From the NCBI GenBank assembly GCA_945871905.1, contig CAMBXL010000004.1, positions 67,375 through 131,374 on the forward strand: a DNA stretch of 64,000 nt, read 5' to 3'. Below the pieces are notes generated by a model that was not told where the DNA came from, did no database searches, and was given only the letters and a program-made list of their open reading frames with translations. The stretch is from Chitinophaga pinensis. GTDB lineage: Bacteria; Bacteroidota; Bacteroidia; NS11-12g; UBA955. Made by a program: the position numbers and the translations under genes. Shown here piece by piece: positions 3,810 to 4,787 of this stretch. Position 1 is the stretch's first letter. The number at the start of each line of letters is the position of its first letter.

Positions 3810-4265
3810 CTATTGAATTTCAATTATCTTGTAATTTGAGGATTGAAACGTGAATGCTGTATTGATGCTTTGTTTTTTCATGAATTGTATAATCGGTGAA
3901 TCCAATGAAACGATAAAATAAGATTGGTCTGATATATTAACCAAACCAAGTGAAGCAGCAATAAAAAAAATCTTTGTATCTGTAATAATCAAAGTTCCAT
4001 TTTCAATTCTTTTCTTTTTTTCAATTTTTAATTGATTCAAAGTATTAATTTGTTGATTAATCATTTTAATTTGAGTTTGCATTTTTTCTTGTTCAATGTG
4101 CATCATTGATTTGAAAGTTTCGTGTTTATCACCAGCAGAACTTTTGGAATCTGTTTGTATTGAATCAATTAATGATTGATAGATAACTGTTAATTCATTA
4201 AATTTAATCTCTAATCTATTTTTACAATATTCTACAAGCGACTTTTTAAGGTAAATATAATCCAT
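3810..4265 (-). CDS. hypothetical protein with central coiled-coil segment
   Basis: 151-aa ORF with a heptad-like region (QEKMQTQIKMINQQINTLNQLKIEKKKRIE). No recognisable catalytic motif. Confidence 0.45.
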   Translation of the reverse strand: MDYIYLKKSLVEYCKNRLEIKFNELTVIYQSLIDSIQTDSKSSAGDKHETFKSMMHIEQEKMQTQIKMINQQINTLNQLKIEKKKRIENGTLIITDTKIFFIAASLGLVNISDQSYFIVSLDSPIIQFMKKQSINTAFTFQSSNYKIIEIQ

Positions 4266-4400
4266 TTAAATAATTGATTCAAATTTATGATTCTTACTCA
4301 TGTATTACATATAAATGTTAAAAAATAATATTTGAATCGTTAATATCTTATTTACGGTCTTCTGTTTTTTTTGTTAAATTTGAAGTTTATATTTAGAATC

Positions 4401-4787
4401 ATGGACAAAATAGAATTAAAAGGCAAAATTAAAGTAGTTGGCAAAACTGTAGAAGTTGGAAATAACGGGTTTAAAAAAAGAGAATTGGTTGTTGAAACCG
4501 AAGAACAATACCCACAATATATTTCAATAAATTTCATCAAGGATGCTTGCGACAGTTTGAATGGTTACACAATTGGTGAAAAAGTTTCCGTTGGTATCAA
4601 TTTAAAAGGTAGAGAATGGACTAGTCCAAGTGGTGAAATTAAGTATTTTAATGACATTCAAGGTTGGAGAATTACTAAATTAGGTGCCGCAGACTCCACT
4701 CCTTCTCCTTCTGAAACCAACGAAGTTCCAGTTTTCCAAACTGAAAGAGACGACTCTTCTCAAGCGGTTGACGATCTTCCATTTTAA
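4401..4787 (+). CDS. DUF3127 domain protein with SSB-like acidic C-terminal tip
   Basis: MDKIELKGKIKVVGKTVEVGNNGFKKRELVV...EKVSVGINLKGREWTSPSGEIKYFNDIQGWRI matches the DUF3127 family common in Bacteroidota. Start chosen at the internal Met, 10 codons into the six-frame ORF. The protein ends in ...DDSSQAVDDLPF. Confidence 0.6.
   Translation: MDKIELKGKIKVVGKTVEVGNNGFKKRELVVETEEQYPQYISINFIKDACDSLNGYTIGEKVSVGINLKGREWTSPSGEIKYFNDIQGWRITKLGAADSTPSPSETNEVPVFQTERDDSSQAVDDLPF

What the first reader, a model, noticed from the sequence alone, without database searches (positions are those of the whole stretch)
4401..4787. DUF3127 protein ending in an SSB-like C-terminal tip (…AVDDLPF)
Bacterial SSB ends in the acidic amphipathic motif D-D-D-(I/L)-P-F, which docks onto more than a dozen genome-maintenance proteins. 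This DUF3127 protein ends in a disordered Ser/Pro/Glu/Asp-rich linker (AADSTPSPSETNEVPVFQTERDDSSQ) followed by AVDDLPF. That is the same linker-plus-tip architecture, but it is not an obvious SSB paralog. It could be an SSB-Ct mimic that recruits, or competes for, SSB-interacting proteins. The function of DUF3127 is, to my knowledge, unassigned.
Basis: partly seen in the sequence, partly recalled or inferred. Interest (0 to 1): 0.5.

Follow-up and report, generated by a model that had tools for sequence, protein, structure and literature searches.

The report
Compact divergent SSB protein of Bacteroidota
The small DUF3127 gene is real and ends in a conserved SSB-type docking tip, but it is best read as a diverged single-stranded-DNA-binding protein shared by Bacteroidota and their phages, not as a new kind of mimic.

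Summary
Window 4401-4787 (+) encodes a 128-aa protein matching Pfam DUF3127 (E 6.6e-28). It has a low-confidence, acidic Ala/Pro/Glu/Ser-rich tail ending in AVDDLPF.

The tip is a family trait. 113 of 120 close homologs end in LPF. So do 95 of the 150 best cluster representatives found with a domain-only query, where most exceptions look truncated or frameshifted. 72 of 77 viral-contig copies also carry it.

The domain models as an OB fold. The 50 listed best Foldseek matches in the PDB are all bacterial SSBs. Domain-only sequences match the canonical phage SSB profile, and a family profile reaches D. radiodurans SSB.

In Bacteroidota phages the gene lies between recombination genes (Erf, YqaJ or PD-(D/E)XK nucleases) and replication genes (DnaB-like helicase, primases), which is the usual SSB position. 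PHROGs, viral RefSeq and IMG already label relatives as SSB, while Pfam and PGAP still say DUF. I found no experimental study.

The window copy lies among housekeeping genes (gyrA, M42 peptidase), not in a prophage. It is most likely a second, compact SSB. ssDNA binding and partner docking are inferred, not shown. Interest is modest.

The parts
4401..4787 (+). Complete CDS, 128 aa plus stop: DUF3127 / compact SSB-like protein
   Evidence: sequence. (PF11325, E 6.6e-28). (phrog_4932 'SSB', E 6e-41).
4401..4679 (+). OB-fold domain, residues 1-93: strands at 2-13, 17-19, 24-33 and 40-46, helix 47-53, strands at 61-74 and 80-93
4680..4763 (+). Linker predicted to be disordered, residues 94-121 (LGAADSTPSPSETNEVPVFQTERDDSSQ)
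   Evidence: pLDDT below 50 for residues 96-109, 113-117 and 119-122. Net charge from residue 94 to the C terminus (linker plus tip) is -7. Length and sequence vary across the family: 15-93 aa, rich in A/P/E/Q/S.
4764..4784 (+). C-terminal acidic tip AVDDLPF, residues 122-128: SSB-Ct-type docking motif
   Evidence: Conserved as D-D-L-P-F in 113/120 close homologs, 95/150 domain-only representatives and 72/77 viral copies. Canonical Flavobacteriia SSBs end the same way...NDLPF and ...DDLPF (PMC3991886).
4375..4382 (+). TAAATTTG, a match to the Bacteroidetes -7 promoter consensus TAnnTTTG (consensus from my own knowledge), 19 nt upstream of the ATG. Weak lead only.
   Evidence: The motif occurs 117 times on both strands of the window, so one match here is not significant. 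The sigma-70 scan was no better than shuffles.

Best explanation
The gene encodes a compact, diverged member of the bacterial/phage SSB superfamily, the subfamily that Pfam calls DUF3127. About 93 N-terminal residues form an SSB-type OB fold that binds single-stranded DNA (inferred). A variable, acidic, Ala/Pro/Glu/Ser-rich disordered linker follows. The protein ends in the D-D-L-P-F tip used by the canonical SSB of Flavobacteriia. By analogy with E. coli SSB-Ct, that tip docks into the hydrophobic pocket and basic ridge of genome-maintenance enzymes such as PriA, RecQ, RecO, RecJ, Ung and topoisomerase III (established knowledge for SSB-Ct; inferred here). In Bacteroidota phages the protein serves as the phage SSB next to the single-strand annealing protein and exonuclease, and upstream of helicase and primase. 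The chromosomal copy in this window is a second, small SSB that coats ssDNA and recruits the same partner set. Shown here: family membership, OB fold, SSB-specific structural and sequence similarity, tip conservation, and gene neighbourhoods. Inferred: ssDNA binding, oligomerisation, partner docking, and the cellular role of the chromosomal copy.
For: (2) Sequence. phrog_4932 'SSB' matches at 6e-41, and canonical phrog_44 matches at 1.9e-5. phrog_44 still matches without the tail, at 0.0059 for the window protein and 7.5e-8 for a homolog. The family profile A2 against PDB sequences finds D. radiodurans SSB at E 6.7e-4, and 15 of 18 hits are SSBs. hhalign against the EcSSB OB domain gives E 1e-4; NLKGREW aligns with QLRTRKW (W73 = W88) and Y37 aligns with W40 at low confidence.
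(3) Tail. The layout matches SSB, and the tip is identical to that of canonical Flavobacteriia SSBs.
(4) Context in mobile elements. 119 isolated phage genomes carry it, all infecting Bacteroidota. In Nonlabens phage P12024S the order is Erf, YqaJ exonuclease, DUF3127..., primase, helicase, and no other SSB is annotated. In 77 IMG/VR contigs the two upstream ORFs include ERF 17, YqaJ 10, DUF3799 7, PDDEXK_1 5, Rad52 3, AAA_24 3 and RecT 1. The two downstream ORFs include DnaB_C 11, DUF3987 5, Prim-Pol 4 and RecT 4.
(5) Natural tandem DUF3127-DUF3127 fusions exist (P0128, P0168). This suggests the OB domains work as oligomers, as in the Deinococcus-Thermus SSBs.
Against: No biochemical evidence exists for any family member in the searchable literature. 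Pfam SSB (PF00436) is not matched even at E<=1, and NCBIfam has no model. The domain is about 20 residues shorter than canonical SSB OB domains, with a much shorter loop between the second and third main strands. Only one of the four classic E. coli ssDNA-stacking aromatics (W88) is mapped with reasonable confidence. Model confidence is moderate (domain pLDDT about 80, pTM 0.48). The chromosomal gene is not next to replication or repair genes in this window (gyrA upstream is separated by two genes; M42 peptidase downstream). The neighbours are not conserved beyond a close relative. I did not verify that this genome also carries a canonical SSB.
Confidence: 0.72

Rival explanations
1. SSB-Ct decoy or adaptor. 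The OB-like domain no longer binds ssDNA, or binds something else. The protein uses its DDLPF tip to titrate SSB-interacting enzymes or carry them to another site, so it regulates or, in phages, hijacks the host SSB interactome.
For: The tip is under stronger constraint than any other part of the tail. Only one classic ssDNA-stacking aromatic is confidently mapped. The domain is shorter than canonical SSB and misses PF00436. Phage copies carry a host-type tip.
Against: The OB core is itself highly conserved. G8, F24, R27, Y37, Q39, G59, G70, R71, W73, G78, F83 and W89 are each at least 90% conserved in 85 diverse members. These include the basic/aromatic LRGREW strand that aligns with the DNA-contacting LRTRKW of EcSSB. 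In phage P12024S it is the only SSB-like gene annotated in a module that needs one. Tip-less copies also exist, for example on a Hymenobacter plasmid, which makes no sense for a pure decoy.
Confidence: 0.1
2. Pathway-dedicated accessory OB protein rather than a general SSB. The chromosomal copy would act like PriB in PriA-dependent replication restart, or like SsbB during DNA uptake or transfer. It would bind ssDNA but serve a single process.
Against: PriB has no disordered tail or SSB-Ct tip, and this family does. Foldseek ranks SSBs, not PriB, at the top. No conserved linkage to priA, dnaB or competence genes was seen.
Confidence: 0.13
3. RNA-binding or translation-related protein: some IMG records name relatives 'translation initiation factor IF-3'.
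For: IMG product names for P0008 and P0044. Weak local matches of the profile to the IF-3 C-domain (E 0.28-0.69...KVTIMFRGRE...).
Against: The IF-3 matches are not significant and cover about 25 residues. With the broader profile they drop out of the E<=1 list, which is otherwise SSBs. The fold searches give OB/SSB, not the IF-3 C-domain fold. The SSB tip and the phage recombination context do not fit a translation role.
Confidence: 0.02

Closest known systems
Canonical bacterial SSB (Pfam PF00436; E. coli SSB, F. psychrophilum FpsSSB, P. torquis PtoSSB)
   Same: N-terminal OB fold of the SSB structural type, a disordered low-complexity linker, and an acidic tip ending in D-(I/L)-P-F. The Flavobacteriia SSBs use the same Leu variant. 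The strand motif LRxR(K/E)W is shared.
   Different: The OB domain is about 93 aa rather than about 112, with a short loop between the second and third main strands. There is no PF00436 match. Only W88, and perhaps W40, of the four classic aromatics is recognisable. Oligomeric state is unknown. Total length is about 115-135 aa; FpsSSB at 140 aa is described as the shortest known single-OB SSB (PMC3991886).
Phage-encoded SSBs in recombination modules (PHROG 44 type, e.g. the HK620 SSB that works with Sak4; PMC5928155)
   Same: Position next to a single-strand annealing protein and an exonuclease, and upstream of helicase/primase. Host-like C-terminal tip.
   Different: A separate sequence family (phrog_4932 / PF11325). 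In the collections searched it is confined to Bacteroidota phages and elements.
Paralogous second SSBs (B. subtilis/S. aureus SsbB, S. aureus SsbC, M. smegmatis SSBb)
   Different: Those paralogs are clear PF00436 members, and several lack the canonical tip. DUF3127 is more diverged in the domain but keeps a canonical tip.
PriB (primosomal replication protein N)
   Different: PriB has no linker or tip. No linkage to priA was seen here.
Deinococcus-Thermus SSB (two OB folds per chain)
   Same: Rare family members carry two DUF3127 domains in tandem (P0128, P0168). D. radiodurans SSB is the best PDB sequence match.
   Different: The window protein has a single domain.

Membership tests
Pfam PF11325 (DUF3127) | Score above the curated gathering threshold of the family HMM | tested here: met
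   97.2 bits against a cutoff of 27, E 6.6e-28, residues 5-91 covering model positions 1-84 of 85.
PHROG 4932 (annotated 'single strand DNA binding protein') | Significant full-length match to the family profile | tested here: met
   E 6e-41, residues 5-128 against profile positions 2-117 of 117. Domain-only match is 2.6e-36.
Bacterial SSB family (PF00436-type) | Match to the Pfam SSB model | tested here: not met
   Only PF11325 is reported at E<=1. There is no NCBIfam hit.
Bacterial SSB family (PF00436-type) | SSB-type OB fold | tested here: met
   [not shown]
Bacterial SSB family (PF00436-type) | Detectable sequence homology of the OB domain to bona fide SSBs | tested here: met
   Domain-only against phrog_44: 7.5e-8 (homolog) and 0.0059 (window). 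Profile A2 against PDB: 1se8 at E 6.7e-4, and 15 of 18 hits are SSBs. hhalign against EcSSB gives E 1e-4.
Bacterial SSB family (PF00436-type) | Disordered linker followed by an acidic C-terminal tip D-D-(I/L)-P-F | tested here: met
   Conserved in the family.
Bacterial SSB family (PF00436-type) | Conserved ssDNA-stacking aromatics (EcSSB W40, W54, F60, W88) | tested here: inconclusive
   W73 aligns with W88. Y37 aligns with W40 only in a low-confidence stretch. F45 matching F60 is inferred only from its position at the end of the third main strand. No equivalent of W54 was established.
Bacterial SSB family (PF00436-type) | Homo-oligomer presenting four OB folds | not testable with these tools
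   The only hint is the tandem-domain relatives.
Bacterial SSB family (PF00436-type) | High-affinity, sequence-independent ssDNA binding | not testable with these tools
   Needs biochemistry. No published assay was found.
PriB | OB-fold protein without a C-terminal disordered tail or SSB-Ct | tested here: not met
   A tail and tip are present and conserved.
Known anti-phage defence proteins (PADLOC-DB) | Match to any defence-system model | tested here: not met
   No hit at E<=0.1.

The most novel reading that the evidence does not exclude
The chromosomal DUF3127 protein is not just a spare SSB. It would be a Bacteroidota-specific second hub that shares the SSB-Ct code with the canonical SSB and is dedicated to one process. 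Examples: standing in for the PriB/DnaT-type accessory factors in PriA-dependent replication restart, or buffering access of repair enzymes to the canonical SSB. It would have been repeatedly exchanged with phages, which use it to plug their Erf/Rad52-type recombinases into the host interactome.
Probability: 0.15. Interest if true: 0.55.

Novelty: new member of a known kind. Interest (0 to 1): 0.3.

Why it matters
This result gives a working function to a "domain of unknown function". The family is very common: 3,240 clusters at 50% identity, at least 596 species genomes and at least 588 viral contigs.

It points to a compact SSB type with the canonical partner-docking tip, restricted in the collections searched to Bacteroidota and their phages. 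Practical consequences follow:
- Pfam and PGAP annotation could be upgraded.
- The IMG 'IF-3' names could be corrected.
- Erf/YqaJ/DUF3127 trios from Bacteroidota phages are natural candidates for recombineering tools in Bacteroides and Flavobacterium, because compatibility between annealing proteins and the SSB tail is known to limit portability (theme of PMC12054835 and PMC13490951, seen).

It does not overturn anything. SSB paralogs and phage SSBs with host-like tips are well known.

Tried and rejected
- The afdb50 fold library was unavailable, so I obtained no taxon spread from AlphaFold DB.
- The listing of cluster members on ten variants with IPF/VPF tips returned no organism names. I could not test whether the tip variant follows the host's canonical SSB.
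- tblastn with E. coli SSB against all fetched loci and the window found no canonical ssb gene. Co-occurrence in one genome rests on the literature (FpsSSB) plus a MAG labelled F. psychrophilum (L029).
- A single-sequence PDB search and the narrow profile A1 gave nothing significant. Only the broader profile A2 did.
- hhalign in global mode was uninformative.
- The window's neighbours (gyrA, TPR protein, orf151, M42 peptidase, DUF1801, lipid A acyltransferase) are syntenic only in the closest relative, L007. They give no functional clue.
- Rfam, PADLOC and NCBIfam returned nothing. The sigma-70 promoter and terminator scan was no better than shuffles.
- I considered and rejected the IF-3 annotation.
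- I considered and rejected a prophage origin for the window copy. The flanks are housekeeping genes, and gene GC is 35.4% against 34.9% for gyrA.
- A quick neighbour-joining tree is too crude, at about 100 aligned residues, to decide the direction of phage-host transfer.

Full report
**Observation.** Window 4401-4787 (+) is an intact ORF (ATG...TAA) of 128 codons. The mechanical ORF list extends to a TTG at 4371. Homologs start at the position of the ATG, so 4401 is the likely start. Pfam assigns residues 5-91 to PF11325 (DUF3127) at E 6.6e-28, and nothing else matches at E<=1. NCBIfam has no model. It is the only ORF of at least 60 aa in all six frames of the window that ends in an acidic ...LPF.

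**Is the tip a family feature?** Yes.
- Among the 120 best relatives from the 5.8-billion-protein collection, 113 end in LPF, most in DDLPF.
- To avoid selecting for the tail, I searched 1.84 billion cluster representatives with residues 1-92 only. This gave 3,240 clusters at E<=1e-3.
- Of the best 150 representatives, 95 end in [ILMVF]PF and about 10 are near misses (DDLPY, DDLTF, DDLPFN and similar). Most of the rest stop at the domain edge or have odd, frameshift-like tails.
- Of the 107 whose domain end I could locate and that carry a tail longer than 8 aa, 89 have the tip or a near miss.
- In 199 tip-bearing members the tail is 15-93 aa long (median 35) and rich in Ala/Pro/Glu/Gln/Ser, with a median net charge of -7. 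The last five positions are D 87%, D 91%, L 95%, P and F, the last two fixed by the selection. A variable linker with a fixed tip is the signature of the SSB C-terminal region.
- The canonical, biochemically characterised SSBs of two Flavobacteriia end the same way. The paper's table gives DLPF, and its primers decode to ...VENDLPF and ...EEDDLPF (PMC3991886).

**Fold.**
- An AlphaFold2 model built on a 38-sequence alignment has pLDDT of about 76-83 over residues 1-93 and below 50 over most of 96-122.
- The order of elements is strand-strand-strand-helix-strand-strand, the OB-fold order.
- Foldseek against the PDB is more specific. All 50 listed matches are bacterial SSBs, best P. aeruginosa SSB at E 4.9e-6 and about 20% identity.
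- Against predicted viral structures, the matches are phage DUF3127 proteins followed by annotated phage SSBs.

**Sequence homology to true SSBs.**
- PHROGs places the protein in phrog_4932, annotated 'single strand DNA binding protein' (6e-41). It also matches the large canonical family phrog_44 (1.9e-5).
- With the tail removed, phrog_44 is still matched, at 0.0059 for the window domain and 7.5e-8 for a Flavobacterium homolog. The similarity therefore lies in the OB domain, not just the tip.
- A profile of 85 diverse members searched against PDB sequences finds D. radiodurans SSB at E 6.7e-4, and 15 of the 18 hits at E<=1 are SSBs.
- The aligned core is G-x-x-V-x-V-x-I-N-L-R-G-R-E-W-T-x-P-x-G-E-x-K-Y against [25 protein letters not shown] of E. 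coli SSB. This puts the nearly invariant W73 on the ssDNA-stacking W88.
- A low-stringency hhalign (E 1e-4, 81 columns) also places the nearly invariant Y37 on W40, but that stretch has low confidence.
- F45 corresponding to F60 is my inference from its position at the end of the third main strand.
- A published note that the CDD DUF3127 model hits a canonical phage SSB points the same way (PMC8004638).

**Context in mobile elements.**
- tblastn finds the family in 119 isolated phage genomes, all infecting Bacteroidota: Flavobacterium, Polaribacter, Cellulophaga, Nonlabens, Tenacibaculum, Olleya and Bacteroides.
- In Nonlabens phage P12024S the order is Erf, YqaJ exonuclease, DUF3127..., primase, helicase. 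No other SSB is annotated in the 35.7-kb genome.
- Phage copies end in DDLPF, SNDLPF or DADPLF.
- In IMG/VR at least 588 contigs encode a relative, and 72 of the 77 examined end in [ILMVF]PF.
- Pfam scans of the two upstream ORFs (147 proteins) are dominated by recombination functions: ERF 17, YqaJ 10, DUF3799 7, PDDEXK_1 5, Rad52 3, AAA_24 3, RecT 1.
- The two downstream ORFs (144 proteins) lean towards replication: DnaB_C 11, DUF3987 5, DnaA_C 5, Prim-Pol 4, plus RecT 4 and PD-(D/E)XK nucleases. This is where phages usually keep their SSB.
- Four Bacteroidota 'plasmids' also carry the family. One is a 61.9-kb circular, phage-like B. thetaiotaomicron element whose copy ends in KDDLPF. Another is a Hymenobacter plasmid copy that lacks the tip and lies between a toprim protein and an ArdC-like zincin.

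**Context in chromosomes.**
- The window copy lies between gyrA, a TPR protein and an unknown divergent 151-aa ORF upstream, and an M42 aminopeptidase 15 nt downstream. DUF1801, a lipid A acyltransferase, an ArsR regulator and lepA follow.
- No terminator separates it from the peptidase gene. There are no phage genes nearby, and its GC content matches its neighbours.
- This arrangement is shared only with the closest relative, a Bacteroidia MAG at 88% identity (L007).
- In most of the other 79 loci from species-representative genomes, nearly all labelled Flavobacteriaceae or Flavobacterium, the gene has a different but conserved neighbourhood. A flavin-reductase-like gene lies immediately upstream, the gene for leucyl/phenylalanyl-tRNA-protein transferase lies downstream, and tag, greA and a HIT gene are nearby. 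I assigned those identities by eye from N-terminal sequences.
- That pattern argues for a stable cellular gene rather than a prophage remnant.
- A crude neighbour-joining tree shows one mostly chromosomal clade (70 chromosomal, 7 viral) nested among viral clades. The window protein falls in a small mixed clade. This suggests exchange between phages and hosts but settles nothing.

**Mechanism.** The most economical reading is that DUF3127 is a compact, diverged SSB. The OB domain binds ssDNA. The acidic linker and DDLPF tip recruit the enzymes that recognise the host SSB tail. In phages it supplies the SSB function of the recombination/replication module, with a host-compatible tip. In the chromosome it is a second small SSB. 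Natural tandem two-domain relatives (P0128, P0168) hint at oligomeric function.

None of the biochemical steps is shown. ssDNA binding, oligomeric state and partner docking are all inferred. I put this reading at about 0.7. The rivals are:
- A non-binding decoy or adaptor (about 0.1). Strong conservation of the OB core, including the DNA-contact strand, and the existence of tip-less copies argue against it.
- A pathway-dedicated PriB- or SsbB-like factor (about 0.13). It is compatible with most of the data, but the tail and the SSB-first structural ranking argue against PriB proper.
- The IF-3 label found in some IMG records (about 0.02), which rests on an insignificant 25-residue similarity.

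**Novelty.** Pfam and PGAP still call the family DUF3127. PHROGs, viral RefSeq and some IMG records already call relatives SSB. I found no experimental paper: 'DUF3127' occurs in one paper, in passing, and 'PF11325' in none. The finding is therefore a real, conserved feature correctly spotted. It belongs to a known kind, an SSB-family paralog or phage SSB with a canonical tip, rather than a new mechanism. Its value is in annotation and possibly as a recombineering part for Bacteroidota.

Noticed in passing
P0128 (210 aa) and P0168 (225 aa), relatives: These are natural tandem fusions of two DUF3127 domains. P0168 ends in DDEIPF, and P0128 has no tail. The layout recalls the two-OB SSBs of Deinococcus-Thermus and hints that the domain works as an oligomer.
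   Followed up: partly
P0189, P0222, P0227, P0239, P0247: A subset of family members carries an extra conserved module of about 30-40 aa inside the linker (…Y.HT…W[TS]…LV.NGKG…) before the DDLPF tip. Pfam has no match for it, and its function is unknown.
   Followed up: partly
P0008 and P0044; IF-3 hits: IMG names some DUF3127 proteins 'translation initiation factor IF-3'. This is probably a misannotation caused by a short local similarity (…V.V.I..RGRE…) to the IF-3 C-domain.
   Followed up: yes
L089:4980-5327 (Hymenobacter sp. BRD128 plasmid NZ_CP053909.1): This plasmid DUF3127 copy lacks the C-terminal tip (it ends …RQPNAQL). It lies between a large toprim-domain protein and an ArdC-like zincin metallopeptidase, an arrangement that resembles the SSB slot of conjugative leading regions.
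   Followed up: partly
L053 (MAG labelled Euzebya sp.) and L076 (MAG labelled Candidatus Nitrotoga sp.): Two short contigs binned into an actinobacterial and a betaproteobacterial MAG encode Flavobacterium-like DUF3127 proteins (53-54% identity to the query). This is probably binning contamination rather than true occurrence outside Bacteroidota.
   Followed up: no
window 3810-4265 (-): A divergently oriented 151-aa ORF lies just upstream of the DUF3127 gene. It has no Pfam or PADLOC match. It is conserved at 95% in the closest relative L007 and is called as a gene in the metagenome contigs. Function unknown.
   Followed up: partly
L008-L086 (Flavobacteriaceae chromosomes): A conserved neighbourhood differs from the window's. 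A flavin-reductase-like gene ends about 7 nt before DUF3127 in 51 loci. The aat gene lies about 285 nt downstream in 66 loci. A gene resembling 3-methyladenine DNA glycosylase I (tag) lies about 1.7 kb downstream on the other strand in 64 loci, and greA and a HIT gene lie upstream. I assigned these identities from N-terminal sequences by eye, not by a family scan.
   Followed up: partly
[not shown]
   Followed up: no
P0243 (408 aa): This representative has an RseP-like N-terminal part (Peptidase_M50 plus PDZ) fused to a complete DUF3127 domain and DDLPF tip. It is probably a gene-calling read-through of adjacent genes rather than a real fusion.
   Followed up: no
A1 alignment, linker columns: In the closer, Flavobacterium-like homologs of alignment A1 the linker has a semi-conserved aromatic patch (…P-x-x-x-x-F-x-P-A…) about 17 residues before the C terminus. 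The window protein has …VPVFQTE… at that place. The patch is lost in the more diverse alignment A2. It may be a second, weaker contact site.
   Followed up: no
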